A stretch of DNA of 64,000 nt from Fistulifera solaris (taxonomy: Eukaryota). The stretch lies in assembly GCA_030295235.1 (NCBI GenBank), contig AP026140.1, positions 62,001 through 126,000 on the forward strand, given 5' to 3'. Positions 4,235 to 59,583 of this stretch are shown here, piece by piece; within the stretch, counting starts at the first letter, position 1, and every line of letters begins with the position of its first letter. The notes below the pieces were generated by a model. The model saw only the letters and a list, made by a program, of their open reading frames with translations. It was not told the DNA's origin and searched no databases. A program made the translations under genes and the position numbers.

Positions 4235-4484
4235 GGTAGCACAGTTGAATCGTCTTGGTAAAGCGGTAAAAGGTATAAATGAGTCGAAAGATATGATCGA
4301 ATGAATAATCGATGCGAAAATTTGGCGTGCCTTCGTGCATCGTTTTGAGCCTAAACAGGCCATAATAATAGCCTGGATCCAAACTTTCGCAAGATCAAAC
4401 TTCATAGTCTAGAATGCAATGTTGCAAGTCCGCCTCTCTACGAAGTGTTTTCGATAGAGTAGGCAAGGCTATTTCGAGACTTGA

Positions 4485-4493
4485 GACACGTGT
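4485..4493. promoter_or_regulatory. ACACGTGT palindrome (CACGTGTC on the minus strand) in a bidirectional promoter
   Basis: Lies about 250 bp from both divergent ATGs (4234 and 4736). Matches the CACGTG(T/C)C-type element known from diatom low-iron promoters. Confidence 0.45.
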
Positions 4494-4735
4494 GCTGTGG
4501 CCTAAACAAAACACTCACTAAAGGCCGCTTAACTCCCTTTCACTCCAACACTTCTTTATGGTCACCGTCGTCTCCCTCGATCTTTTGAAAAAAAGCCAAA
4601 TAGCTTTACCTGAGCCACAAAAAGGTTGTAAGAGCTTCTCATTATCAGTGACTCTACCGGTTGATTGATTTTCTATCCAGTCGATTGTTTTCAAGTGCTC
4701 CCTCTCGCTCACTTTTTTTTTATAAACAACAAATT

Positions 4736-15993: not shown

Positions 15994-17277
15994 ATGACAG
16001 AAGCGAAAGACTACGAGACGGAGCTCTCACCTTTGTTGCAACGTCGACAGTCACACACTTCGCTCAATGAAGAGTCACTCGCGAGCAACACAGAGACAAC
16101 AATCAATTTAATTAAAACTTGTATGGGTACAGGATGTCTCGCATTACCATTCGCGTGTCAACAAGGTGGTATTGTACTTTTTATCATCGGGTTATTTGCA
16201 GTGGGAGCTTGGAATGTTTATTCCGTCCACCGTTTAGTGCAATGTTTATCCTGTTTTCCCAAATCAAGACAGTTATCGGATGCTACAAGCAGTACTACCC
16301 GTATCAACTCCGCACAGGAACCCCAAATACCACCAGAAGGTATCGCTGTCATGAGTCAAGTGACTTGGATCGCATTCGGGCCGCTGGGAGTACAAGTACT
16401 CGATGGAATCATGATGGTATTGTTCTTTGGAGTGATTACGGCTTATTATTGTGCCGTTCTAACGTTTCTAGGCGATACACCGTTGTCGTTGGGAAGAATA
16501 TTTGATAGTGGATTGACATGCATCATTCTCACCGTTCTATCGCTAGTGCCGCATGTTGGTGCATTGAAATATGCCAGTGCGTTAGGAATGATCGTACTCT
16601 CCCCTGACCTTTGGTGTCATTTTCGTTTACGGATATTCCGGAAACAACAAGGAGGGTGCGACGTTGAATATGTGGCCTTCTTCCATCGATGGGCTGAGTC
16701 AATGGTTCGGTGTGATTGTCTTTGGATTTGGAATTGTTCCCATGACGTACAATTACCGATCCTCGATGCAAAGGCCAGAAGATATCGTGAAAGTTACATT
16801 GCATGCCATGTTTGGGACAGCTTGCTCGTATACTATCATCGGATGGGGTTTGTATGCACTGTTTCCTTCTTTACAAGGTGATGTGCTCAGTGAATTACCC
16901 CGACACGGAGTCTTTCCCATTGCCACTCGTTTAGCCATGGTCACAGTGGTCTTGATGACGGCACCCTTTTGATTGTACCATGTGCGGAGTTATTGGAAGG
17001 CAAATGGCAGCATGCGGGGCGATTATTCACTCGATTAACAATCTGCGGCGTTTCGTGTACACTGGCGATCCTCTTTCCGCATTTCGTTCAGGCTTTATCA
17101 CTTGTAGGGTCAACGTGCGTCGCTGCCGTTAGCTTTTGCGTGCCTGCGTTACTCCACTGGAAATTAGTAAGGGGACAATCGGAACAGGAGTATAAGCGTC
17201 TAGCCAAGGTTGATTTGTTCATGTTTATCCTGGGAATCGTTTTGACGGCCATCAGCACCTACGTTCTGCTTTCGTGA
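15994..17277 (+). CDS. Amino-acid transporter, AAAP/Aa_trans family
   Basis: TM1 signature NLIKTCMGTGCLALPFA..QGG and many TM helices. Indels at about 16602 and 16966 link three ORFs. Confidence 0.9.
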
Positions 17278-18032: not shown

Positions 18033-19262
18033 ATGAGCAGAGAAACTACGGAAAAGCCGTCGAGTCTTTGCAAGCGATTCCTCTCCAGCAATGCGGCGTT
18101 TATCATTGTGATCATACAAATTCTCATCTTATGTCGCTCCAACAAATGCGTTTTCGATACAGTAAGAGAGGAAAAGGACTTTTCGTTCCCGCTGCAACTT
18201 TCGGACGAGCACGAGCGTAGTGAGTCGCCTTCTAACTTGCTCTCGTCCGACGGTCACTCTGCTCTCTCTAATGCCGATAATGCGCAAAAGAAGAGTCGCG
18301 TGTTGATGGGGCTATTAGCCGCGGAATCACAAGATTTGAACGATTATGCAAGAGTGCAGCGTGAATTGTTTGCGCTGCACCCAAATGTGTGTTCGCTGCA
18401 GCAATTTCAGGAGACGCGATCATCGGCTTGTGAATTGCTTTATACGTTTGTGCTCGGAGCTAACGAGGACGGTCCTACGGAAATTGTAAATGAAACGGTG
18501 TCTGTTCTTACTTACAACACAAAGTCTATTTTAGGTGGGGATGACGTGATTCATCTTAATATTCGGTAAGTTGTTGTTCGACTTCGCATCGACACTCCTC
18601 AGGCTCGCATTCAACTCTTTCTCATGCGTGCTGTTGCTTTTTTGTGCAGAGAAAACATGAACGAAGGCAAAAGTCAAACGTGGTTTTACTATGCAAGTAC
18701 CATTGCGGATGCGTTGGGAATCGACTACGTTGGTAAGATCGATCTTGATACATTGCTGTATCTGGACAAACTTTTCGGCTTCAAAGAGATGCATTTGCCT
18801 CCAGCGCCATACAACAATCACATTCTGGTGGGTCAGCTAGTCGACAAAGATATGTGGAATATCGATTTGTACGGCAAACGGTTCCCGGGAAAGTTTTGGC
18901 CAAAAGAAAAGCTTGTCCTTGACCACTTGCAACCTCCCTATCACATGTACGCGCAAGGTGGATGCTACATTATGAGCACCGACTTGGTGAAGGGCGTCGT
19001 TCGCGTAGCCAATACTGTGCCCAAGGAGAACTATTTCGAGCAACATGAGGATCATGATGTCACGACGATGGCTTTTATTAGCACGGTGCTTAAAGACGAT
19101 CCGAATTATGCGGCAACGATGAGTCTGAAACAGATGACTACCCTTAGTTTATTTTGGAAGCATCCTGTGAAGAGGGATCATATACGATGGAGTCGGATTT
19201 GGAAAAATGAAATCAGGCGCATGGGCAGAAATGTGAACAATGTTGCATCGAAAACGTCATGA
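18033..19262 (+). CDS. Type II membrane glycosyltransferase, GT31 (beta-1,3-galactosyltransferase)-like
   Basis: N-terminal signal anchor. Motifs FVLG, ENMNEGKS, YVGKIDLD (DxD), YAQGGCY..S.DL, HEDHD and HPVK. Intron 18566-18649. Confidence 0.75.
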
Positions 19263-19488
19263 GTGTGTGAGCGACTTTGGGCGTAACTTCAATGGTAACC
19301 AAACTGCTTGTATTGAATGATACTATGGTCCTCTTCAAATGATATCGCTAGAAAACCCGAGCGAGAGAAAGTTTTCAAAGATTGCAGCGTTTGTGAAACG
19401 ACCATCATCCCAGAAGCAGAACAAAGCGGAATGGGTTGTAATTTATTACATAGATCTAACCATTTAATACATAGGTCTAACCATTTAT

Positions 19489-20968
19489 TTATGGGTTGTA
19501 TTTATGAATAAAGCCGGTAGCGACCTGAACGGCCTCCTCTATAGTTTGTGCTTGAGCCCACATGGCAGTTTCTCCGTCTTTACATCCCTCCCAACTTTCA
19601 AAGGCGACCTCCAACGTACTTGAAATCTTTGCTGTAGCTTGGTCGATGTAGACAAAAGGAATACCTGACAGGTAGGACAGGATAGCGGCATGTAAACGAT
19701 CGCAGATCACGACCTTCCCCAACGAAAGCATCTGGATCGCCGACTCCGTGAATAAAAAAATCGTCCGAAGGCCACAATGCGAATCGAGTGTTCCAGTCAA
19801 AGACACCAAATCTTAAGTCATCCCCGCCTTCGAGGGCGTTCAGCATTGATCGAATATCATCATGGGACGATGATATTACTGACTCTTTATCGGTCCGTAG
19901 GAAGAATACGATATCCAGCTGTAATGCTTCTTTTTCCTTGGTTATCCTTCGTTCGTAAGGACCTAAATGAAACGCAATGTCGGGAACCAGTAGATTGGTA
20001 GCAAATGGGTATTCTTTCAGCGCCTCGTTGTAACCTTTTCGCTCACGCCACGAGAAGACCACTCGAGAAGCAGACTCCTGTTTGGCAATCTCCGTCTCTA
20101 AACTGGTAAGACCCAAGGCGGTAGCAATACCGTTTCGAATGCGTTTTGTATCTTCTTGTCGCAATTTGCCCGAGTAATAATGAAAACTAGATGGCATGGC
20201 CACGACCGTAAAATTGTTGCGGAGTAGTGGCTCGAAACTTGCCACGCGTTGCCGATGTGTGAAGTACCACAAGTCACCGAAATTGCCACCGCCGTGCCAT
20301 ATGGCAAATGTATTTCCAGTATTGTCTTGTTTCAAATAGTCTCGACAATTGATGTTCGCGAACCGCCCAGACTGAGCGTAACCACACGTATCCACGGAAG
20401 TGTCCGCATATCCTAAATGTTGAAGAAAACGTTGCTCCCCCTTGTAGAGCATACTGTCGCCGACGTTGGGATGGTAAGCAGGGTCCACTAATAGCACGGG
20501 CTTTCGATGTTCTGCAAATGTTTGGATGTGAGGATCTAGCAGCTGATGTGCTAACTCTCGAATTTTGACAATGCATTCGTGCCGTTTGCGGATGCCTGGA
20601 TGATCTGTATCAAACAGTTCAATCGCTTCAGGAGCAATGCTATCTTCGGGATTGATTCCTTGCGGAACTGTAAAATTAGAGAGAAGCGCGGCTATGTCAA
20701 TCTCGGATATCAGCCTGTCTTTTTCAACGAGAGTCGACGCGAACGACGCATCTTGCTGCTGCTGATTTTCCGCCTCCTCGTCTTGTTGTCGCTTTTCTTG
20801 TGGGAGGTGCGCCGAGGGTTCGTTCATGCCTTCTCTGTTGATCATTCCGAGAACCCCATCGACCATGATCGAGTAGCGAAAGTTAAAAAGCGTGACAAAG
20901 CCAACAAGAACCGCTACTATCATAACGAGCTGCGGGCGTTTCACCTTATTGTTGTCTGTTTTTATCAT
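19489..20968 (-). CDS. Polysaccharide pyruvyltransferase (Pvg1/WcaK-like), type II membrane
   Basis: Motifs HPNVGDSM, HGGGNFGDLW, WRE, PDIAF, LRTDKES and DRLHAAILS. An extra base in the A-run at about 19755 splits off the C-terminus. Confidence 0.88.
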
Positions 20969-21045
20969 GATTGCCTAATTTAATTCAATGCATAAAATGC
21001 TAATCCATTATGGTACTTGTATATGTTCGAATGTTTTTCGTCTTC

Positions 21046-21615
21046 ATGAATTTCTGGACCAGCCCAGATTTTCTGTGGAAATAATGAAATACACCTGGTC
21101 CAGAATTTCTGGACCAGCCCAGAATTTCTGTTTGAATGAATTCCATTTGGTCCAGAATTTCTGGACCAGCCCAGAATTTCTGAATGAATGAAATCCACTT
21201 GGTCCAGAATTTCTGAACCAGCCCAGAATTTCTGTATGAATGAAATCCACTTGGTCCAGAATTTCTGGACCTGCCCAGAATTTCTGTATGAATGAAATCC
21301 ACCAGCCTAAAATTTCTGTATGAATGAAATTCACGTGGTCCAGAATTTCTGGAAAAGCCCAGAATTTCTGTATGAATGAAATCCACGTGGTCAAAGATTT
21401 CTGGACCAGCCCAGATTTTCTGTATGAATGAAATCCACTTGGTCCAGAATTTCTGGACCAGCCCAGAATTTCTGTATGAATGAAATCCACTTTGCCCAGA
21501 ATTTCTGGACCAGCCCAAAATTTCTGTATGAATGAAATCCCACTTGGCCCAGAATTTCTGGACCAGCCCAACATTTCCGTATGAATGAAATCCACTTGGT
21601 CCAGAATCTCTGGAC
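21046..21615. repeat. Minisatellite of about 11 copies of a 52-bp unit with internal palindrome GGTCCAGAA-T-TTCTGGACC
   Basis: Unit starts at 21097, 21149, 21201, 21253, (one internally deleted unit), 21337, 21389, 21441, 21493, 21546 and 21598. Confidence 0.95.
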
Positions 21616-21909
21616 TACCTGGTAGTTAACTAAATAAAAATTGGCTTGCATCGATTTCTCGGATTCAAATTGGATGATATGGGGTTTATATTAGAAGCTT
21701 TTTAAAAAGGCACTCACATGCAACGACTCCAGTAGCTCCTCCGTCCCTAGTTGCTTTCGCCGAACTCTCTTTTGGAAAATTGGGCTGCAAATGATTGGCG
21801 ACTTATACACTTGTAGTCTAGTCGTCCATTTGCTGCCGCAAATCGTTAGGAAGTAGTAGTTTCATTCCAAATGCAGAACAGACTTGCAGAACCATCAATG
21901 CCGCGCTCA

Positions 21910-23133
21910 TTACGACACCATAGTCTGGACGATACGTTCCATTCGCTTCTTTTCATTTCGCCAAACAACAGACCAGCTCCTTCGCTGCCTCTTTACAGGA
22001 TGCTTCCAAAATAAACTAAGAGTCGTCATCTGTTTCAGACTCATTGTTGCAGCATAATTTGCATCGCCTTCAATCACCGTGCTAATGAAAGCCATTGTCG
22101 TGACATCATGATCCTCATGTTGCTCGAAATAGTTTTCCTTGGGCACAGTATTAGCTACGCGAACGATCCCCTTCACCAAGTCCGTGCTCAGGATGTAACA
22201 TCCGCCTTGTGCGTAAATATGATAACTGGGCTGCAAATGTTCGAGAACCAGTTTTTCTTTCTCCCAAAAATCAGTTACGAACCTCTTGCCATAATTTTGA
22301 ACGTTCCAGACATCCTTGTCGACTAGTTGACCCACCAAAATGTGATTGTTGTATGGCGCTGGGGGGAGATGCATTTCCTTGAAGCCGAAAAACTTGTCCA
22401 GATACAACATTGTATCCAGATCGATTTTTCCCACGTAGTCAATTCCCAACTCATCTGCAATTGTACTGGCATAATAGAACCACGTTTGACTTTTGCCTTC
22501 ATTCATGTTCTCTCTGCAAACGAAACAAGCAAAGTCAGTAAGAATGAGAAATAGACGTATCGCTCGTGGTTTTTATGCGAACCGCAATAAATCCCCTCTA
22601 CAAACAAGAACGCCAGGTAAAACGTACCGAATGTTGAGATGCGTCACATCGTCTCCCGTCAAACCCTTGCGGATGCTGCTGGCGAGAACCGGCATCGTGT
22701 CGTTTACAATTTCCGTAGGACCGTCCTCGTTTGCTCCGAGCACAAACGTATAAAGCAGTTCGCAAGCCGATGATCGCGTTTTCTGAAATTGTTGTAAGGA
22801 GCACACATTCGGATGCAGCGCAACGAGTTCGCGATGCACTCTTGCATAATCATACAAAAAGCGCGATTCTACAGCCATTAGTCCCATCAAAACACGACTT
22901 CTCGTTCGTCTCTCAGCAGAAATTTTCGATGTAAAGGTCCCTGAACTCAATTCGGTCGAACGGCTGAGCTCATTAACTGATTGAGGCTGAAACTTTGTGG
23001 CATTTATACCTGACCCGATATCGATCATGCATCTCGAAGAGCACCATAACACGAAAATCTGAACGAACAGAATGGCGAACGTCGCATTGCTAATTGCCGC
23101 AGATCTTTGGCTTTTGTTCGATGGCATTTCCAT
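21910..23133 (-). CDS. GT31-like glycosyltransferase, inverted paralog of 18033-19262
   Basis: Catalytic exon is close to identical in protein sequence. Intron at the same position (22514-22627). N-terminal stem is divergent. Confidence 0.8.
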
Positions 23134-33409: not shown

Positions 33410-33754
33410 TTTGTTGTTGAGAAAAAGGCTTTGAAATAATGTAAAACGAATAATAGGACACCAACAAGTCCAATGTTGCTCGCTTTCGAGTTGTCTGCGA
33501 ACGATGATTGATTTTTGTGTGCCGGCAAACAGTGCGGAGAAAAGAAAAGATCGCGCCAAAATTGCGCAGTAGCATTTCTAGGAAAAAGGCGATACTAAGT
33601 CCCAGTGAGACGCGTATTTTGTTTTTTGTCGTTGCTTTCAAGACTCATTTTTGAAAAGGACGCGTTCTTTTTTACTATTACTCCGTAGTATATAATCATC
33701 GCATTCCGCCAAAATGACAAGAGTGTGGCATCGTATCTAATGAAGAATGACAAG

Positions 33755-34596
33755 ATGTTACGACGAATCAACTTTGCTTGGGTAATACTCTTCGGCTTGT
33801 TTTCATGTTCAAGATCAGCTATGGTTATCACCTTAGGTGACTCGTATGCGGCTGGAACAGGTGCGCAGGCATTGCGGAAGGAGTACGATGATACAACTTG
33901 CTACGTCGAAGATGACACAAGTCCTGGAGGAAAATATGCTTCCGCACGTGGTTTGAAGCACATTGTGGCAGCTTGTAGTGGTGACCTCGTCATTGATACT
34001 GTGGCGCAATGGGATGATTTGCAGCTACGTTATTCCAATGAAGCTACGGATCTTTGGGAAGGATCGGTTATTCTTGTGACTACCGGCGGAAATTCGCTCG
34101 AGTCGATTCGTGGTGACGACTTTGTAGAAGGTCTGATTCGCTGTTTGACTGTTCCGCGTTGTTACGAACCCCCAGAAAATCAGGTTGCGAACTATGATGC
34201 AGTGCAAGCCGAACTAGAGCAATTTTACTCTCAGTTAGCGGTACAAGCATATCGAGCGACAGTCCGAGTTATCGGATATCCGAAAGTATTCAATTCTAAC
34301 CGGCTTCGATGCTCGATTCCTGGGATAACAGTTCGGGAAGCCGACTTTTTGACAATATCGTAATTGGAATGAATGATCGGATTGTGACGGCCATCGACGC
34401 AGTAAAGTCAAGTTTTCCTGACTTCGACATACGGTTTGTCGATGTCACAAACTATTATACGAACGGTGCATGCTCGCCCTTCAAATCTCGCCAAGTACGA
34501 AATCTAAATGCGCGCTTTCCCCGTTCCAGTTTTCATCCCACACAAAATGGATACGATAAATCATATGGGGCTCTGCTAGATACAATGAATGGCTGA
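33755..34596 (+). CDS. Secreted SGNH/GDSL hydrolase (SEST-like)
   Basis: Signal peptide. Blocks LGDSYAAG, ACSG, TGGN, GYP and SFHPT..GY. A T is missing at about 34346. Confidence 0.88.
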
Positions 34597-35062
34597 TTGC
34601 GGTAATTTGAGAAAGAGAGGTGGATTAGTAAGTCGAAAGCCAAAAAAAACACCACCGGTTCACCGTAAAGGGTTTCTTCATTTATGAGATATGTCACTTC
34701 ATTGACCGCCCAATTGAGCAGTTTTCCGGTGAAGAAAAGGCAAGTTTGTCGGTTGGTTTACAAATCTTCTGCGAGATCTTTCACGCTTTCAAGTCGCTCA
34801 TAGCAAAACGAGGGGCCGAACACTTTCCCGAGACTGACTTCTGTTTTCAGTCACGATTGCCGAAAGAAGCGAGGACTTACTTAATACTGTGAGCCACAAA
34901 GTACTAAGTGCCTGACCTAACGGCCATAACCCATAACATAACGGCCCTCTTCGATCGTCGTCATCGCGTAGAACGCACAATAATTTCGTCCTCTTTCTTT
35001 CATCGGAAACAAACAACAACACTTCTCTACCGAATATCGATTATTTCTGTCAGACGAAGCCG

Positions 35063-35909
35063 ATGTTATTCGCAGTACGGTCGCTTCTTGTTGCATTGTT
35101 GTGCTATGCCGCCGTTCCGCTAACGCAAGCAGCCTTAGTTGTGACGATCGGAGATTCGTATGCGGCTGGAACAGGCATTCATGCTTTGCGGAAGGAATAT
35201 GATGATACGTATTGTTACGTTGAGGTAGACACCATTCCTGGAGGAAAATACGCTTCCACGAGAGGACTGGAGCATGTTGTAACGGCGTGCGCGGGTGATA
35301 CGATTGATGCAACTGTAGCACAATGGAACGATTTGCAACTTCGCTACCCAGACGAAGTTGCCGATCTATGGGAAGGATCGGTGATTATTATTTCCACAGG
35401 AGGGAACTCCGCGCTCACGAGACGAGGCGAGAATTTCGAAGAAAGTTTAGCTAGAGTGTTAAGGACTCGACGATTTCACGAGGATGAATTGAACCAAGTA
35501 GGAAATTTAGGTGACGTGCAAACAGAGCTGGAAACATTTTATTCTCAACTGGCGGTCGAAGCGGCAGAAGCGACCGTTCGGGTGATGGGTTACCCTTTAT
35601 TTTCAATTCTAATCCACTGAAATGTTTCATCCCTGGAATCCGTGTCGCAGAAGCCAACTTTTTGACGAAACAGTGGTCGAATTGAATGAAGTCATTGTTG
35701 CGGCTATCGAAACAGTTAAGACCGCATTTCCTAGCTTTGACATCCGCTACGTCGATGTTGCTCCTTCTTACGGCAGCGGCGCTTGCTCTCCTTTCAAATT
35801 CCGCCATATAAGAGACATCAATGTTCGGGCTCCGGTTACCAGCTTCCATCCAACGCAAGGCGGATATGATAGAGCTTACGGGGCTTTTCTGCGGACGATG
35901 TTAATCTAA
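35063..35909 (+). CDS. Secreted SGNH/GDSL hydrolase, tandem paralog
   Basis: IGDSYAAG, TGGN and SFHPT. A T is missing at about 35600 and again at about 35659. Confidence 0.85.
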
Positions 35910-44275: not shown

Positions 44276-44573
44276 GTTTCTTCTTCAAAAGCTGTCTGTT
44301 TTTAAGAAGTTCAGCAACGAATACTACCTGGTAATGATAGATGTTTGCAAAAACGGGGTAAATGGATCGATGACGACGATCCTAAAAAAAAAGAATGAGA
44401 AAAAGAAAAAAGATTTTTGTGAGGAACGCAAAAGAAACTTCCGTCTTCGCGAAGGGAACTTGCCGCGCATGTTGCTCGCACCTCGCACTCGTCAAGGAAC
44501 CTGCCCAGTGAAAAACAAAACTTCCAGATTTTCTGGCTAGATCATCAAACCACCAGTACTCCGTACTTTCATT

Positions 44574-45530
44574 TTCACGTCGAAAATTCCGAGGATCGAA
44601 ACCTTGATTTTTCACTATGAAACGGAGTGTTGGTTTACGCCAGCCAAGACTGGATTGAAACAGTAATCTTGAACCGAACAACAAAGGGTTCCGTTTTGCG
44701 TCTCTTGCATCCGTCCATTGTCATTCAACTGCGAATATAATCATAATAACGGGTAAATAAGGTCACAACATTGATCATTCGGAACTATTTGTTAAAAGTT
44801 TCTTTTATATTCACGTCGAAAATTCCGAGGATCGAAACCTTGATTTTTCACTATGAAACGGAGTGTTGGTTTACGCCAGCCAAGACTGGATTGAAACAGT
44901 AGTCTTGAACCGAACAACCAAGGGTTCCGTTTTGCGTCTCTCGCATCCGTCCATTGTCATTCAACTGCGAATATAATCATAATAACGGGTAAAAAAAGTC
45001 GCAACAATGATTATTTGGAACTATTTGTTAAAAGTCTCTTTTATATTCACGTCGAAAATTCCGAGGATCGAAACCTTGATTTTTCACTATGAAACGGAGT
45101 GTTGGTTTACGCCAGCCAAGACTGGATTGAAACAGTAGTCTTGAACCGAACAACCAAGGGTTCCGTTTTGCGTCTCTCGCATACGTCCATTGTCATTCAA
45201 CTGCGAATATAATCATAATAACGGGTAAATAAGGTCACAACAATGATCATTCGGAACTATTTGTTAAAAGTCTCTTTTATATTCACGTCGAAAATTCCGA
45301 GGATCGAAACCTTGATTTTTCACTATGAAACGGAGTGTTGGTTTACGCCAGCCAAGACTGGATTGAAACAGTAGTCTTGAACCGAACAACAAAGGGTTCC
45401 GTTTTGCGTCTCTTGCATCCGTCCATTGTCATTCAACTGCGAATATAATCATAATAACGGGTAAATAAGGTCACAACAATGATCATTCGGAACTATTTAT
45501 TAAAAGTCTCTTTTATATTCACGTCAAAAA
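44574..45530. repeat. Young tandem array, 4 x 236 bp
   Basis: TTCACGTCGAAAATTCCGAGG starts at 44574, 44810, 45046 and 45282, with a partial copy at 45518. Copies differ only by scattered substitutions. Confidence 0.97.
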
Positions 45531-45549
45531 TGCGAGGAAACATCGATTA

Positions 45550-50842: not shown

Positions 50843-51072
50843 TTTCACCTTCCCAGAAAATCTGGAGAAAGCTGTGGGGTCATGTACCCAGAAGATGTGG
50901 GCGAGTGCTATTTTCACGTACCCAGAAAATGTGGGAGAGTACTATTTTCACGTACCCAGAAAATGTGGGAGAGTGGTATTTTCACCCAGAGGGCGTGTGA
51001 TATTTTTACTTACCCAGAAAATGTGGGGGTGTGCTATTTTCACGCACCCGGAAAATGTGGGAGCGTGCTTTT
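50843..51072. repeat. Minisatellite of about 6 copies of a 34-bp unit (TATTTTCACGTACCCAGAAAATGTGGGAGAGTGC)
   Basis: Direct repeats between the divergent LSM7 and nocturnin-like genes. Confidence 0.9.
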
Positions 51073-53270: not shown

Positions 53271-54248
53271 GGTTAATTGTATCGAAAGGAAAGAAAGGAA
53301 GCAAAGTTGAAATGAATAATGTCACTTCCCTTCCATCATTGCCGCACAATACTCGCAATAACTTTTACCAGTACTTTCGCAAAGCCAAACTACGGTTCAT
53401 GACTGAATGCAGTCGTGGTAAAGTTGGATTACACTTTGGATTTATAGTCAAAACGGAATACACCGATCCGCAAAGAGTTTCGGCATGTGATTATGAGCCA
53501 AAACGACGCTAATGAAGGATACAGGATACTATGAGTCAAAACGACGCTGATAAAGGATGCAATACAACTAAAATAATAAGACGAACGCGAGCGATGACTC
53601 GAGAAGACGAACGGACTATAGACATTGCCGTCATGCACGAAAATTTAGGTGATTGATTATGATGATGATTCAAGTTTTATGGTTGAATGGCAAAGATAAT
53701 TAACCACCTTTTCTAAAAAATCAAAGATAACTTGTAAGTGGGGTGCATAATGATCAACACGTTATTTTTCATGTCGTTGCAACTTTTTAGCAAAGAGACA
53801 AAATAAGTGATGTCGGAAATTCTGTGTGACAGTCGAATGCATGTGACATGTGACATGTGCCAGATACCGTGAAACAACTTTGCTTGTGTATTTAGAGTTT
53901 ACAGCGATACCCAATCGTCCTTTGTGTACGGACAGAAGGAAAGGCGATAATTATGATTATATTTAGTTAGACGATGCAAACCGTAACCGTTTCAAAAAGC
54001 TTAATCAATTTTGCGGACGAATAAAATTCATAGCAAAATCTTCCCTATCTCCGCAAGTACTATCACCTAAAGTGGTGAAGGGGGCCTCCGATTTTGAAAT
54101 TTTAGCCGGTGAATCCGACGAATTGCGAACTGTTACCATCCAATCTAACGAAATCGGTGACATGCTTGTCAATCGCCTCACCATTTCAATCAAAAAATAG
54201 CCCGTTCGCTTGATACCGAGACCATACAAGAAACTACAACCACCAAGA

Positions 54249-55220
54249 ATGCAAGACCAATCACCCCTACTGAGCTTGCGAATGAGGTCGTCGGATTCGC
54301 AGTTTGTTCGGTTCGAAGTCGACCAAGATAGCTCAATGGACCAACTTGCCGTCATGATATCTCAAGATCGAGAATACCGCTGTCGAGACTATTTCGGACG
54401 ACGAAGCGCTGCGAAATCGATGCACACTCAATCACCGACTTCAACGCAGTTGGAGTTATTAGACGATACGCCCGACAGTATCTGCCGAGAGAAAATGGTC
54501 GATTGGAGCTATCGCGTTTGCGATCATTTTCACACCAAGCGCGAAATCGTAGCTTATGCGTTTTCCTTTCTGGATCGTTTCGTCGATCGGTGTCACTGTG
54601 ATCGAAAAGCGTTCAAATTGGCTGCCATGACGGCACTCTACTTGTCGACAAAAATATTCAATCAGCAACAAATGTCACTGGGCAGCATATCGGAGTTGAG
54701 CCGAGGAGAGTTCGCGACTCATCATATTGCGGAGATGGAGAGTATAATTCTGCAAACACTCAATTGGAAGATGAATCCTCCCATTGTACAAGCCTTTATT
54801 CGAGTGTTACTACCGGTGCTGGTCCAGGAAAGGAGTCCGCGCAGTATCCAAAACTTGTGCGACCGCGCCATTTTCTTTGCCGAATTAGCCGTCTTTGATT
54901 ACAGCTTGATTACCGAAGATCGTTACGTGCTAGCGATCGCGTGCATACTGAATGCGGTGGAGAGCATGGACGAGACTCTGTTACAACAGTCCAGTCCTTC
55001 CCAGCTGCTAATGAATTTACAATCTCAACATTGCCTCGATCCCGATATGGAAGCACTGGGACATTGTCAGGGGCGTCTGTGGATACTGTACGGTACTTCC
55101 GCTCAACTCAAAGAAGGTGATATTCTACCACTACACATTCGAAAAGGACTTGAAGTCGAATACTCGGGTGAATCGAAGGGGCACAGCGCTCATTCACCCA
55201 TTGGAGTCGGGCACTATTGA
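54249..55220 (+). CDS. Cyclin (diatom-specific type)
   Basis: Cyclin box CREKMVDWSY.VCDHF...REIV..A.SFLDRF and EME..IL..L.W..NPP. Confidence 0.92.
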   Translation: MQDQSPLLSLRMRSSDSQFVRFEVDQDSSMDQLAVMISQDREYRCRDYFGRRSAAKSMHTQSPTSTQLELLDDTPDSICREKMVDWSYRVCDHFHTKREIVAYAFSFLDRFVDRCHCDRKAFKLAAMTALYLSTKIFNQQQMSLGSISELSRGEFATHHIAEMESIILQTLNWKMNPPIVQAFIRVLLPVLVQERSPRSIQNLCDRAIFFAELAVFDYSLITEDRYVLAIACILNAVESMDETLLQQSSPSQLLMNLQSQHCLDPDMEALGHCQGRLWILYGTSAQLKEGDILPLHIRKGLEVEYSGESKGHSAHSPIGVGHY

Positions 55221-55747
55221 TATTCTGGATAAACAGAATGAATCATGTCCTTTCTGCTTAACGACAGTCCAAAATCATAAATTATAGATCTTTTGTTCAT
55301 ATTTTTCAGGAACGGCAACACTAGAAAAATGATTTGAAGAGCCACGACTTTCATAAACGGCATTTCAAACAATTGTAATTCATTGCCAGACCAATACCAT
55401 TGCAATCAATATCTCTAGAGATAGCTGGGGCCAGACTGTTTCCCTATATGGTGACGTGTGACGTGGGCAAAGGGTGCGGAGATTCGTGCCATGCGTGAAT
55501 GAGTCGGTCCTGTGAATCTGGGACAAACACACACACGTGCGCGGCAGTACTGAATTCTACGGCCGGCGGGCTGTGTGTGTAATGCGTGACGCAGCAACGG
55601 AGAAGGATTTTGTGCGCCGCGAATAAAGGATCGCGTTTGCTGAGCCGCCGTCGATGCACGATGCGCGTTATTTATTGCATGTGTTGCAAACAATAGTTTG
55701 TCATTGCTTTCGTCTTTGTCTCTATTTCTTTGCTTCATTCATTCAAA

Positions 55748-57505
55748 ATGATAAAGAAAACAGACTCGTGGACGCTTCCGTCTATTTTCGGCTTCGAAAA
55801 GCGTACTTATCAGTACATTGCGTCCGAATTTCATCCCTTTCATCAGCACGAAGGAAATGTGTTGGCGCATCTTTTCACGACGAGTCTCGGTATTTGGGGA
55901 GCCATTCAGCTCGCGCGGGTTCTTGGTTTCGCATTTTTGCCTGTAGCGTACGGTATACTGGTGGCGGCTACCACTCCGCTGATGACGGCCTTTCTGCACT
56001 CGCTCTTCCTTTACGGCGCCTTTTTTACTTCAGTTCCGCTGGTATTCGGAATGACGTCCGAATGGCAAGTCTGTCTTTCAGCGATTGCCGTAGGATACGG
56101 TCTACAGGATGTAGCGCATTGGGCTTTTCAAGAAAAGACTTATATGCAGAGTTACATGGGAGAAAAGAAGCCTTGGATGTTGATCGTTCATTCGATTTGG
56201 TTGCTTCCGCTGGTGTTGGATAGTATGACCATGCGCTACTGGTTTCTGCCCAAAATTGTCAGTCGGAATCGTAACATTGTAACACAGGTAGCCAGTCGTG
56301 AAGCAGTCGAGAATTTGCGGAAATGGATACACGAAAACGTTCCCGAGACACCGGAAACCACACATGTCTGGCCGCACAAACAGGAAGCCACTTCCCAAGC
56401 AACGGCGGCTTTAGAACATGATCCGGCCATTCTGGAAGGTTTCCGTCGTGTTTTTGCCGCAAAACACTTTGATGTCCGCCCGGTGCAATCCATGAACGAG
56501 ATTTACGTTACGGCTGTTGGGGCCAAGAAAGAAATCAATTCGGATGCGGTATTCTATACTCCGCACACCGATGGGCCGTATTGGTTCTTGCCGTGTGCTT
56601 CCTTGTATCGTGTTTTGGTGGGAGTTACACCCAATCGCATGGTCCGCACTCGTTTTAATTTGCAGCATGAATCACGTGACAAGGTAGTCGATATGTACGA
56701 TGTATTGGGCTTTGACTACAGCCGTGAGTTGCACTGGATCGACCACGTGCCTGGTGCGGTCAACGATGAGCGACGATCTCTGTTGAAGCTGCATTTTATT
56801 GTTTATCCGAAAGGATGGCACTGGTACGGAGATTTATGTGCTACTCTGCAAACGAACTACAATACCTGGGCTCGCAACAACTTTTTGCGCACACTACGAC
56901 CAGAAGGCTGGTACGAATTTGGCTTGGCTTGGTGGATCTGGTTGACGACTTGGACCAATGCGATCTTTGAAGAACACGTCGGATGGAGTAACCTAGTGTA
57001 TTTGCTGGCTAGCTACGCGATGGGAGCGACTCCTTTCTTGATCCTGACTTCATTCCGTCATTATGTCGTCTACATTACGACTTTTGCGTTCCGTGAGCCA
57101 GATGTTGGCCATGGGTATTTGATGCGTGACGCCAAATTGTACAAAACCGTCAGCATGATGCACATTGCTCGTCGAATCTTACCGCTGGTCGCTATGCAGA
57201 ACGATTGGCCGGCCGTTCTGTTGGCGTTCGCTGGATTCGGCACGACGTTGGCGGCGACCGCTCGCTTGGGGATGGTTCGTACGTACTTTGGTACCGAGCT
57301 TGGTTTGGTGAAGCCAATGTGGATTTCCGGATTCCCCTATGGATATATTCCGCATCCCATGATTGTGGGACAGATCTTCGCTTTTTATGTGATTCTAGGA
57401 TGGTTTTGGCCGCGACTCACGCAAGAAGATGTTGCCTTGTTAGTCACTCACATGGGCTTTTATACCACGCACATGCTTCAAGAGATGTTTACCGGTAGCT
57501 ATTGA
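55748..57505 (+). CDS. Multi-domain membrane protein: Mpo1/DUF962-like + putative Fe(II) dioxygenase + PEMT-like domain
   Basis: N-terminal F...H....N...H and GY.LQ..AH..F.EK. Central HTD...H...R. C-terminal TYFG.ELG...GFPY..IPHPM.VG. Confidence 0.8.
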   Translation: MIKKTDSWTLPSIFGFEKRTYQYIASEFHPFHQHEGNVLAHLFTTSLGIWGAIQLARVLGFAFLPVAYGILVAATTPLMTAFLHSLFLYGAFFTSVPLVFGMTSEWQVCLSAIAVGYGLQDVAHWAFQEKTYMQSYMGEKKPWMLIVHSIWLLPLVLDSMTMRYWFLPKIVSRNRNIVTQVASREAVENLRKWIHENVPETPETTHVWPHKQEATSQATAALEHDPAILEGFRRVFAAKHFDVRPVQSMNEIYVTAVGAKKEINSDAVFYTPHTDGPYWFLPCASLYRVLVGVTPNRMVRTRFNLQHESRDKVVDMYDVLGFDYSRELHWIDHVPGAVNDERRSLLKLHFIVYPKGWHWYGDLCATLQTNYNTWARNNFLRTLRPEGWYEFGLAWWIWLTTWTNAIFEEHVGWSNLVYLLASYAMGATPFLILTSFRHYVVYITTFAFREPDVGHGYLMRDAKLYKTVSMMHIARRILPLVAMQNDWPAVLLAFAGFGTTLAATARLGMVRTYFGTELGLVKPMWISGFPYGYIPHPMIVGQIFAFYVILGWFWPRLTQEDVALLVTHMGFYTTHMLQEMFTGSY

Positions 57506-58478
57506 AAATTGAAAACACATAACGCTCAATTTAAAAAGTAATGATAATATTCATTCCCTGGCTCAAAATATAAAGTAGATACGACCTACGATGCCTAATC
57601 AACCGACTATTGATTACAGAATTGTATGTCTGTTGCATTCGTCTTTGCTTTTGCGAGGTAAGATGTCTGCTAGCTCTTACGCTTTTTGCAGTCGGTAGTT
57701 AGTTATGCTTTATTTCACGATTCGTGACTTATTCGCGACTCTCTTCCTTTCTCTGACGCCACCCACCGCTCAAGCAGGATGGAAGGCCGTTTAATCATTT
57801 ACAATTACAAGGATTTGTAGTAAAAGTTATAAAGATAGAGAGCGTCGAGTCTCGCATTATTTGTTCGTATCCCTAGTTTTCTGCCGTACAGTATGACGAA
57901 CGACGAACTTTATGGACACGCGAGAGATGTCAAACCCAATCTCATTGGCTAAAAACACTCGGAGTATCGACTTCATCCAAGTGAAACGCATACTTTTGTG
58001 TACAGAATTAACCCACGTCTGATCATCGTCCGTTGATGATTCGTGTCGGTTCGTGTGTCCAGTATCTAGTTTGGTGTACGTCATCAAGAAACAAGTTCCC
58101 AAACCAAAAGCGAAGGCTGGAATTTGGCGACGTGAACGAGTTCCTTGTATGGTCATAAGTTGTAGTATCCGCTTTACTTAATGGAGGAGTCACGCTTGCA
58201 ACTTTTCTACTAATTCCTATATTACTCTAGCTTAGGAAGTAGGACATACGCGTCTGTCTCCCCTACAAAAATACACGTCGAAGTTTTGCAACACCACGAG
58301 ATCGAAACGCCAAACCGTGGCCACCTCCACCTCGAGTGGAGGAAAAATCTTCCGACTTTTCGCTCGTCCCCCCAATTGATTTCACTTTTTGTATCCTCGG
58401 CTCTCTCAAACGGTTCAATTATCGTCGATCAAATAACATCTTGCTGGACAAATCAACTATTCAAGCTGTCAATCAAAA

Positions 58479-59583
58479 ATGAACCCGGCAATGATTGATG
58501 TTGATGATGCGATCGATCGATTGATTGCCATGAGGCACCAAGAGGAAGTCAGTTATTCTTATCGAAAGTACCTTCCTCCGTTTCCTGCTGGATCCTTCGA
58601 TGGAAAATTAAACGTAACATGGCGAGAGAAGATCTGTCAGTGGAGCTATAACGTAGTAGACCAGTAAGTATCTACTTTCAGAGATTAGTTGTCTTCGTTG
58701 ATCGCCGACTTTACTCACATACTAAATCCTCCGATACAGTTTCGAACTATCGAGAGAAGTCGTTGCAGTAAGCATATCAATATTTGATCGCTTTCTAGCG
58801 ACTCAAGGAAACAAGTGCAACGGCGCGCTTGCTCTTTTAACGTCCCTAACGACATTACACATCGCCATCAAGCTCCACGAGAACAAGAAGATCAAGCTCA
58901 CTACTTTGGCAAACTTGAGCCGAGGCCAGTTCGGCCCGGAACATATCGAGGAAATGGAGAGACGAATACTGAATGCTGTCGGCTGGAAAGTTCATCCACC
59001 GACGCACTATTCTTTCATCTCAGACTTTCTGCTGCTTTTGCCTCAGGAAGCCAATCCTGTGGTCCGTAAAGAGTTGTTTGAACTCTCAAGGTACATTTCT
59101 GAGCTCGCTGTTTGCGACTCTTTCTTTGTTGATGTCAACAACTCCACAGTAGCTTTTGCAGCTCTGCTCTGTGTCATGGATGATATCAGTTATTCGAGGC
59201 TATCAGCGGGTTTGCGCGAGAAGATGTTGGTGGACATTTCTCTAAAAGTGGGCTTGAACCACTTTTCGCGCCCCGTTCAGGCTGCTCGTGAGCGTTTGAG
59301 AACAATGTTCATCAACAGCTCAGCGCATACGATGCTCGCGAGCTTCAACCAGAAAATGTACGACGCTACTTCCGATTCGCACTCCTTCGGGAATGCCTCG
59401 ATATCGTCCACTGGATCCAGTTCTCCGTCTCTTCCGAGCAGATCGCGCACCAATTCCTTCGACAGCAAGAGCAGCTATCGTTATTCTCCCTCACCACGAC
59501 GCCACTTTGTTGCCAGCGTCTCGCCTATGCGCCATGGCCGATCCCACATATCTTGCTCCCCCATTATGGCGGGCGTACAATGA
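58479..59583 (+). CDS. Cyclin (diatom-specific type)
   Basis: WREKICQWSYNVVDHFELSREVV.....FDRFL and EMERRIL..V.W..HPPT. Intron 58664-58739. Confidence 0.92.

What the first reader, a model, noticed from the sequence alone, without database searches (positions are those of the whole stretch)
18033..23133. GT31 / pyruvyltransferase / GT31 cassette: candidate pyruvylated-galactose pathway in a diatom
Seen: two inverted GT31-like paralogs bracket a pyruvyltransferase, and all three have Golgi-type signal anchors. Known: in Schizosaccharomyces pombe the GT31 enzyme Pvg3 adds beta-1,3-Gal and Pvg1 pyruvylates it from PEP, giving a negatively charged glycan cap. Inference: a clustered pathway for pyruvylated surface glycans or EPS (adhesion, metal binding, frustule coat). 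I do not know of this being described as a gene cluster in diatoms.
Basis: partly seen in the sequence, partly recalled or inferred. Interest (0 to 1): 0.75.

Follow-up and report, generated by a model that had tools for sequence, protein, structure and literature searches.

The report
Diatom sugar-pyruvylation gene trio
In the diatom Fistulifera solaris an enzyme that probably caps surface sugars with negatively charged pyruvate sits between two sugar-adding enzymes, which offers candidate genes for the pyruvate reported in diatom slime, although the grouping was not found in other diatoms.

Summary
Confirmed. Two inverted, intron-bearing GT31-like paralogs flank a Pvg1-like pyruvyltransferase (PT) in Fistulifera solaris. 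All three have an N-terminal anchor and are under purifying selection on both subgenomes. The PT frameshift at 19754 is an assembly slip. The PT keeps Pvg1's three proposed catalytic residues and its model matches 5AX7 best. The genome shows one PT and three such GT31s per subgenome, so chance adjacency is unlikely (about 4e-4, post hoc). Relatives of the PT are fused to TPT-family transporters (the kind of carrier that could supply PEP, as Pet1/Pet2 do in yeast) or to a GT31 domain, and a TPT gene lies 16 kb away here. Against the cluster reading: no GT31 of this family lay beside any of 38 related loci (26 distinct), the donor sugar is unresolved (Gal, GlcA and GlcNAc transferases fit about equally), and the nearby transporter's link is weak in trees. 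Pyruvate has been reported in EPS of two diatoms; I found no gene assigned to it. This scan earlier noted a transporter-PT fusion in another diatom-type genome. Verdict: a known kind of pathway in a new lineage, with a local, probably Fistulifera-limited, gene grouping.

The parts
18033..19262 (+). GT-A: GT31-like glycosyltransferase, 381 aa, type II anchor, intron 18566-18649; DxD (D209-L-D211), GGCY (281), EDHD (311), HPVK (349)
   Evidence: intron joined in contigs of runs X3 and X4; model matches GT31-fold enzymes; dN/dS 0.07 (exon 2) and 0.15 (exon 1) against the C20 copy
19489..20968 (-). PT: Pvg1-like polysaccharide pyruvyltransferase (PF04230), 492 aa, type II anchor; one-base assembly slip at 19754
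   Evidence: D171/R308/R424 align to Pvg1 D106/R217/R337 (counted from the printed alignment; residues); Foldseek best hit 5AX7, E 1.7e-14, TM 0.74 by target; dN/dS 0.17 and 0.05
21048..21615 (.). 52-bp tandem repeat array between the PT start and the GT-C end; non-coding; a different repeat lies at this place on C20
21910..23133 (-). GT-C: inverted paralog of GT-A, 370 aa, intron 22514-22627; 82% identical to GT-A in exon 2, 57% in exon 1
   Evidence: dN/dS 0.09 and 0.24 against the C20 copy; this intron was not seen joined in any contig listed
36647..37911 (-). TPT-family (PF03151) transporter FisN_6Hh424, about 16 kb from the PT; candidate Golgi PEP importer, link unproven; split over three frames in the window, one open frame on C20
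   Evidence: start codon not fixed

Best explanation
The locus encodes the last steps of an anionic glycan cap. In the secretory pathway (Golgi, inferred), one or both GT31 paralogs add a beta-1,3-linked terminal hexose, most likely galactose, from a UDP-sugar to a surface or secreted glycan. The PT then condenses phosphoenolpyruvate onto two hydroxyls of that sugar as a ketal, releasing phosphate, as Pvg1 does in fission yeast. Luminal PEP comes in through a TPT-family antiporter, possibly the one 16 kb away. The two GT paralogs arose by inverted duplication before the two parental genomes split, are partly homogenised, and differ in one internal segment and the C-terminus, so they may serve different acceptors. 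Shown: genes, folds, motifs, selection, low copy number, fusions in relatives. Inferred: compartment, donor sugar, coupling, product, transporter identity. Rough step odds: PT is an active ketal pyruvyltransferase 0.9; GTs are active 0.9; GTs feed this PT 0.6; donor is Gal 0.55; FisN_6Hh424 is the PEP carrier 0.35.
For: Profile search of PDB sequences gave 2 hits at E<=1, Pvg1 at 1.8e-28 and WbbZ at 0.38; the PT model's best match is Pvg1. D171, R308 and R424 are kept in 136, 143 and 140 of 146 family rows. GT-A model: GT31-fold enzymes at Z 14-16.5. dN/dS 0.05-0.24 for all three genes. One PT and three GT31-like genes per subgenome; adjacency by chance about 4e-4. Of 30 long family members scanned, 7 carry a TPT domain and 1 (P0243) a GT31 domain directly before the PT domain; named fusions are from a choanoflagellate and a chytrid. 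Of 26 distinct metagenome loci, 3 have TPT-PT fusions, 1 an adjacent TPT, and 4 a glycosyltransferase gene in the flank. Pvg1 needs Golgi PEP carriers Pet1/Pet2 (PMC4872226, passages) and pvg3 supplies the beta-1,3-Gal (PMC6994554, passage). Pyruvate is reported in EPS of Amphora rostrata and Navicula subinflata (PMC9148076, PMC4706044, passages citing older work).
Against: No ORF of this GT31 family in the flanks of 38 related PT loci (16 of 26 distinct loci had at least 2 kb on a side; positive control hit), and no PF01762 hit among 143 flank ORFs scanned. The GT31 domain fused in P0243 is a canonical one, not this diatom subfamily (no hit with the subfamily profile; hhalign probability 14%). 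The donor is unresolved: CHSY3 (Z 16.5), B3GalT5 (16.1) and B3GalT6 (15.5) are tied, B3GNT2 follows at 14.5, at 14-18% identity. Pvg1 H168, which shapes acceptor choice, is T237 here and variable in the family. The nearby TPT ranks fifth among 20 own loci with a profile of fused domains, none of its 91 homologs is fused to a PT, and its grouping with fused domains has SH-aLRT 85 in one tree and 61/89 in the careful one. The older pyruvate assays may reflect bacterial EPS (inference; originals not read).
Confidence: 0.5

Rival explanations
1. Passive neighbours. The PT is a real pyruvyltransferase and the GT31s are real transferases, but they act on different glycans; a rearrangement in the Fistulifera line put them together and an inverted duplication made the bracket.
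For: Linkage absent in 38 related loci; neighbours of PT relatives are mostly unrelated genes (Mpv17, ankyrin, kinase, lipase); flanks differ even between near-identical PT copies L027 and L050; the rest of the window holds no further recognisable glycan genes among the ORFs scanned apart from the TPT. Conservation on both subgenomes is expected, since the whole region is collinear.
Against: Chance adjacency is about 4e-4 (post hoc); GT31-PT and TPT-PT fusions and other GT neighbours recur; the loci tested are distant (29-49% identity) and none of those placed in the tree falls in the 14-row branch around the F. solaris PT, so close kin were not tested.
Confidence: 0.3
2. Coupled, but not galactose. 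The GT31s add GlcA, GlcNAc, Glc or Man, and the PT caps a different terminal sugar or uses another ketal position (3,4 rather than 4,6).
For: Fold matches are tied across donors; H168 is not kept; pyruvate ketals are known on Man, Glc and ManNAc and at 3,4 positions in green algae (PMC6801904, passages).
Against: The eukaryotic examples listed in that review's table are all on galactose; the closest solved enzyme is galactose-specific Pvg1; A. rostrata EPS is 32% Gal (PMC4584364, table passage).
Confidence: 0.15
3. The PT is a pseudogene, or the block is bacterial contamination or an assembly artefact.
For: Frameshift in the window; nearest large ESM Atlas clusters are mostly bacterial.
Against: The extra base is missing from contigs of two studies; intact homeolog and database protein; spliceosomal introns in both GTs; collinear eukaryotic neighbours on both subgenomes; purifying selection; a Nitzschia inconspicua member in the same branch.
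Confidence: 0.03

Closest known systems
Schizosaccharomyces pombe PvGal pathway (Pvg1 pyruvyltransferase, Pvg3 beta-1,3-galactosyltransferase, Pet1/Pet2 Golgi PEP transporters)
   Same: PF04230 GT-B fold with the three proposed catalytic residues; type II anchor; GT31-class partner; TPT-family carrier fused to or near relatives.
   Different: About 20-22% identity to Pvg1; H168 not kept; the GTs form a diatom subfamily with no shown orthology to Pvg3; genes adjacent here, whereas the yeast genes are unlinked (recalled, not checked); acceptor unknown.
GT31 family (B3GalT5, B3GalT6, B3GNT2, C1GalT1, Fringe, GT31-type domain of CHSY3)
   Same: GT-A fold, DxD, glycine-rich loop, xED, C-terminal His; PF01762 over the cut-off.
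   Different: Only 9-18% identity in structural alignments; no PDB sequence hit at E<=10 with the family profile; own NMNEGKSQTW / PPAPYN signature; donor and acceptor unknown.
Bacterial EPS pyruvyltransferases of PF04230 (EpsI/EpsO-type, WbbZ, CsaB)
   Same: Same domain; in bacteria such genes lie in polysaccharide gene clusters with glycosyltransferases (recalled).
   Different: Signal anchor and stem; only 24-32% identity to the 26 weaker hits; CsaB model scores 18 bits against a cut-off of 213.
Brown algal FK-GFPP / sulfotransferase / hydrolase gene cluster
   Same: A small stramenopile gene group tied to making an anionic extracellular polysaccharide (PMC11468063, passages).
   Different: That cluster is conserved across orders and adds sulfate; this one was seen only in Fistulifera and would add pyruvate.

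Membership tests
Pvg1-like ketal pyruvyltransferases (PF04230) | PF04230 domain over the curated cut-off | tested here: met
   34.6 and 30.8 bits for the two frames, cut-off 25.3; 69 bits on the intact homeolog
Pvg1-like ketal pyruvyltransferases (PF04230) | Proposed catalytic D106, R217, R337 | tested here: met
   D171, R308, R424 by the alignment (chain offset 53, my count); kept in 136, 143, 140 of 146 rows
Pvg1-like ketal pyruvyltransferases (PF04230) | Two-domain GT-B fold like 5AX7 | tested here: met
   Model pLDDT 85; Foldseek E 1.7e-14, TM 0.74 by target, next family 1.2e-6
Pvg1-like ketal pyruvyltransferases (PF04230) | Acceptor-pocket H168 | tested here: not met
   T237 in F. solaris; V39, A36, I32, T12, H7 of 146 rows. 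Bears on acceptor range, not on catalysis
Pvg1-like ketal pyruvyltransferases (PF04230) | Golgi location, PEP-dependent 4,6-ketal transfer to beta-Gal | not testable with these tools
   Only an N-terminal hydrophobic helix is shown
GT31 glycosyltransferases | PF01762 domain and GT-A fold of the B3GNT2/B3GalT type | tested here: met
   27-32 bits, cut-off 23; Atlas score 0.96 to PF01762 clusters; Z 14-16.5 (GT-A only)
GT31 glycosyltransferases | DxD, xED and C-terminal His motifs (motif roles recalled) | tested here: met
   D209/D211, E311/D312, H349 nearly invariant in 72 sequences
beta-1,3-galactosyltransferases (Pvg3-like) | UDP-Gal as donor | tested here: inconclusive
   CHSY3, B3GalT5 and B3GalT6 tied within 1 Z; B3GNT2 close behind
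beta-1,3-galactosyltransferases (Pvg3-like) | Orthology to S. pombe Pvg3 | not tested
   No Pvg3 sequence was returned by any search
Pet1/Pet2-like Golgi PEP transporters | TPT-family transporter grouping with PT-fused or Pet-type carriers | tested here: inconclusive
   Subfamily profile scores 8 of 12 fused or adjacent domains above every other F. solaris TPT (best 33.9 bits), but tree support is weak; Pet1/Pet2 themselves were not in the set
Eukaryotic biosynthetic gene cluster | Adjacent non-homologous genes of one plausible pathway | tested here: met
   consecutive accessions GAX21540-42 and GAX14646-48
Eukaryotic biosynthetic gene cluster | Linkage conserved across genera | tested here: not met
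   0 of 38 loci; limited to distant relatives with short flanks
Eukaryotic biosynthetic gene cluster | Co-expression and a shared product | not testable with these tools
   Only assembled contigs were available

The most novel reading that the evidence does not exclude
The trio plus the TPT gene 16 kb away is a complete loosely clustered kit (priming sugar, ketal, PEP import) for pyruvylated diatom EPS, and the PT family (212 representatives at E<=1e-30, with diatom, choanoflagellate and chytrid members and repeated transporter and GT fusions) marks pyruvylation as a widespread, overlooked source of surface charge in protists.
Probability: 0.25. Interest if true: 0.72.

Novelty: new variant of a known kind. 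Interest (0 to 1): 0.48.

Why it matters
Pyruvate has been reported in the EPS of two benthic diatoms, once as about 20% of biofilm EPS, yet my searches found no gene tied to it and a review of pyruvylation has no mention of diatoms. A single-copy PT in a culturable diatom makes the question testable: one knockout pair or one in vitro assay shows whether diatoms pyruvylate their own glycans. That bears on adhesion, biofouling, cation cross-linking and how marine bacteria degrade diatom polysaccharides. The fusions also point to a search route for Golgi PEP carriers outside yeast.

Tried and rejected
PT pseudogene reading: rejected. Expression: no holder was on record as RNA; runs X3 and X4 (RNA is a guess) cover parts of both GTs and none of the PT, which shows nothing either way about the PT. 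Viral contigs: no relatives of PT or GT (17 and 50 pattern matches, none confirmed). PDB sequence search with the GT profile: 0 hits at E<=10. A weak fourth PF04230 match on C15 (24.5 bits, under cut-off) was not resolved. dN/dS for the TPT: the slice was out of frame and is discarded. Equal 'longest contig' lengths between unnamed proteins: PT P0002 and GT P0148 both list 21,488 bases, a hint of a third linked copy (82-86% identical PT); similar equalities among short contigs are expected by chance and were not used. P0217's N-terminal part was taken as transporter-like by eye; it has no Pfam hit and was dropped from later trees. Trees: one search left out P0217 and three own TPT rows used; one search dropped 14 of 38 rows (long branches, near-copies); one search kept 146 rows covering at least 270 profile columns and thinned the bacterial-like hits. 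No complex prediction was run, since binding is not claimed. Literature searches without a paper on diatom pyruvyltransferases, judged from listings: 'pyruvyltransferase + diatom' (1 paper), 'pyruvyl transferase + diatom' (4), 'pyruvylation + diatom' (3), 'diatom + pyruvate + polysaccharide + pyruvylated' (5), 'fistulifera solaris + glycosyltransferase' (13), 'diatom + gt31 + glycosyltransferase + gene cluster' (4), fusion search (226, top 15 seen, none holding 'pyruvyltransferase'). Subscription papers and all supplements (for example diatom CAZyme tables) were not seen and could list these genes.
Full report
Setting. The window is G000:C19:62001-126000 of a 51.7-Mb, 62-contig genome with paired contigs. 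The PT matches a protein named FisN_6Hh432 of Fistulifera solaris at 100%, and a collinear homeologous region lies on C20 at 76-90% DNA identity, as expected for this allodiploid (allodiploidy recalled; the H/L gene names agree).

The observation. GT-A runs 18033-19262 (+) and GT-C 23133-21910 (-), each with one GT..AG intron at the same place in the IR|ENMNEGK motif. The GT-A intron is joined in contigs of runs X3 and X4 (one study, RNA status guessed). The PT runs 20968-19489 (-), convergent with GT-A and in the same direction as GT-C. In the window it is split over two frames. Contigs of both runs that cover the site (X1, and X2, a wetland metagenome of another study) lack one base at 19754, and the same two runs correct two one-base slips in the neighbouring amino-acid transporter gene. 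The C20 copy is open. So the break is an assembly error. All three proteins have one strongly hydrophobic stretch near residues 13-33 that the two models show as a helix followed by a low-confidence stem: the type II layout. The annotated proteins have consecutive accessions on both subgenomes (GAX21540-42, GAX14646-48). Between subgenomes dS is 0.5-0.8 and dN/dS 0.05-0.24, so all three genes are maintained.

The pyruvyltransferase. A profile of 27 close relatives finds two PDB sequences at E<=1: Pvg1 (1.8e-28) and WbbZ (0.38). Counting along that alignment (chain offset 53), Pvg1 D106, R217 and R337, the residues proposed as catalytic in PMC4872226 (abstract and passages), fall on D171, R308 and R424; these are kept in 136, 143 and 140 of 146 family rows. 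The model's best structural match is Pvg1. H168, which hinders LacNAc in Pvg1, is T237 and variable, so the acceptor range need not equal the yeast's. The family is wide: 212 representatives at E<=1e-30. A branch of about 100 rows holds F. solaris and Nitzschia inconspicua KAG7370062 (FastTree, most rows unnamed, so 'diatom branch' is an inference).

The glycosyltransferases. Pfam scores are just over the cut-off, the ESM Atlas places GT-A with PF01762 clusters at 0.96, and the model aligns to CHSY3, B3GalT5 and B3GalT6 (Z 16.5, 16.1, 15.5, tied), then B3GNT2, C1GalT1 and Fringe (14.5-14.0), all at 9-18% identity. They are GT31-fold enzymes with intact motifs, but 'galactosyltransferase' is a family label, not a result. 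They belong to a subfamily with 81 hits, including a Pseudo-nitzschia gene model and an unlinked intronless F. solaris paralog on C3/C4. The two paralogs are 82% alike in exon 2; 60-base blocks range from 0.57-0.72 (one internal segment and the C-terminus) to 0.97, and some paralog blocks are more alike than homeolog blocks, which suggests partial gene conversion with a protected divergent segment (inference).

Is the grouping meaningful? For: the genome searches show one PT and three such GTs per subgenome (lower bounds), and a simple calculation gives about 4e-4 for a GT within 2.5 kb of the PT (post hoc). Among 30 long family members scanned, 7 carry a TPT transporter domain and one, P0243, reads FkbM methyltransferase, GT2, GT31, PT in one chain (a second 1610-aa cluster member exists). 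Named fusions come from Stephanoeca diplocostata and Spizellomyces punctatus. Since Pvg1 depends on the Golgi PEP carriers Pet1/Pet2, these fusions support a luminal, PEP-using role for the family. Of 26 distinct metagenome loci (38 before merging near-copies), 3 are TPT-PT fusions, 1 has an adjacent TPT with a second PT and a GT8, and others have a GT47, a GT92-like gene, or GT4- and GT7-like genes nearby. Against: a profile of the diatom GT31 subfamily found nothing in any of the 38 loci while hitting all four control ORFs; 8 distinct loci had at least 2 kb on both sides and 8 on one side, enough to see an arrangement like this one. The GT31 in P0243 is not of this subfamily. The Pfam-recognised TPT fusions all lie outside the branch that holds F. 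solaris. The loci tested are distant, so linkage in close genera is untested.

A fourth gene. A TPT-family gene (FisN_6Hh424) lies about 16 kb from the PT on both subgenomes. With about 12 TPT genes per subgenome that proximity has a chance of about 1.5%. It belongs to a stand-alone subfamily (91 hits, none with PF04230). A profile of that subfamily scores 8 of 12 fused or adjacent domains above any other F. solaris TPT, and a quick tree groups it with 7 of 11 fused domains and no other own TPT (SH-aLRT 85). But a profile of the fused domains ranks it only fifth of 20 own loci, and careful trees leave the join open (67/83; 61/89). It is a candidate, not more.

Mechanism. Most likely the GT31s add a terminal beta-1,3 hexose, probably galactose, and the PT caps it with a pyruvate ketal from PEP in the Golgi, giving an anionic surface or secreted glycan (confidence 0.5 for the coupled reading; about 0.9 for PT activity alone). 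The main rival is that the genes are neighbours by rearrangement (0.3); a second is coupling with another sugar (0.15).

What is known. The yeast pathway is described (PMC4872226, PMC6090015, PMC6994554: abstracts or passages). A review lists eukaryotic pyruvylation in yeast, red and green algae, a sponge and a mollusc and holds no occurrence of 'diatom' (PMC6801904, term search and passages). Two reviews and one paper cite pyruvate in EPS of Amphora rostrata and Navicula subinflata (PMC9148076, PMC4706044, passages; PMC4584364 for sugar tables); I did not read the originals. The Seminavis genome paper's main text has no 'pyruvyl'; a red algal genome paper only names PTs as needed. A precedent for a stramenopile polysaccharide gene cluster exists in brown algae (PMC11468063, passages). 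Databases already label these proteins by domain. This scan earlier noted a TPT-PT-GT-like fusion in another diatom-type genome (e1-7619605), seen after my own fusion results; it is an unchecked note. No supplements were read.

Verdict. The feature is real and the enzyme is a credible Pvg1 counterpart. The cluster is not shown to be conserved or co-regulated and the sugar is unknown. New variant of a known kind; interest 0.48, mainly because it makes an old chemical observation testable.

Noticed in passing
window 21048-21615; L010 about 4330-4510; window 50843-51069: A 52-bp tandem array built on a near-palindrome sits between PT and GT-C. The exact unit occurs only here in the assembly (6 matches), yet related contigs pile up to summed depths over 1000. 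The C20 homeolog has a different repeat at the same place, akin to the 34-bp array at 50.9 kb.
   Followed up: partly
window 15994-17277 (+): Amino-acid transporter gene (PF01490) split over three frames by one-base assembly slips at 16601 and 16966, both corrected by contigs of two runs.
   Followed up: yes
window 33689-35900 (+): Two tandem secreted-looking GDSL/SGNH hydrolase-like genes (weak PF13472) between the trio and the TPT; such folds include carbohydrate esterases (recalled), link untested.
   Followed up: no
L038 373-19945 (also L037, L039, L040): Intron-poor block: GT4-like gene, nucleotidyltransferase-HAD-kinase fusion, TPT-PT fusion, two anchored unknown proteins, GT7-like gene, then an NDC10_II-domain ORF; looks like a true glycan cluster in an unidentified eukaryote.
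   Followed up: partly
L042 133-9096: PT next to a TPT transporter, a second, different PF04230 gene and a GT8 gene.
   Followed up: partly
P0243, P0190, P0198, P0306: Further fusions of this PT family: FkbM-GT2-GT31-PT (1592 aa); a weak rhamnosyltransferase-like N-terminal half in Nitzschia inconspicua; DUF6625-PT; and in Spizellomyces a methyltransferase gene next to the TPT-PT gene, with a 1085-aa protein in the same cluster.
   Followed up: partly
L023/L025 and L032 groups: Two distinct PT loci both have an Mpv17/PMP22 gene directly downstream, the only shared neighbour seen besides a methyltransferase in the near-copies L027/L050.
   Followed up: no
L014 1-5028 (G000:C4): Copia-like retrotransposon remains just upstream of the third GT31 paralog on C4, absent from the C3 stretch fetched; judged by eye from ORFs.
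   Followed up: no
window 44566-45538; 1973-2665; 54201-59580: A 236-bp tandem array (4 copies), a globin-domain ORF, and two cyclin-domain ORFs.
   Followed up: no
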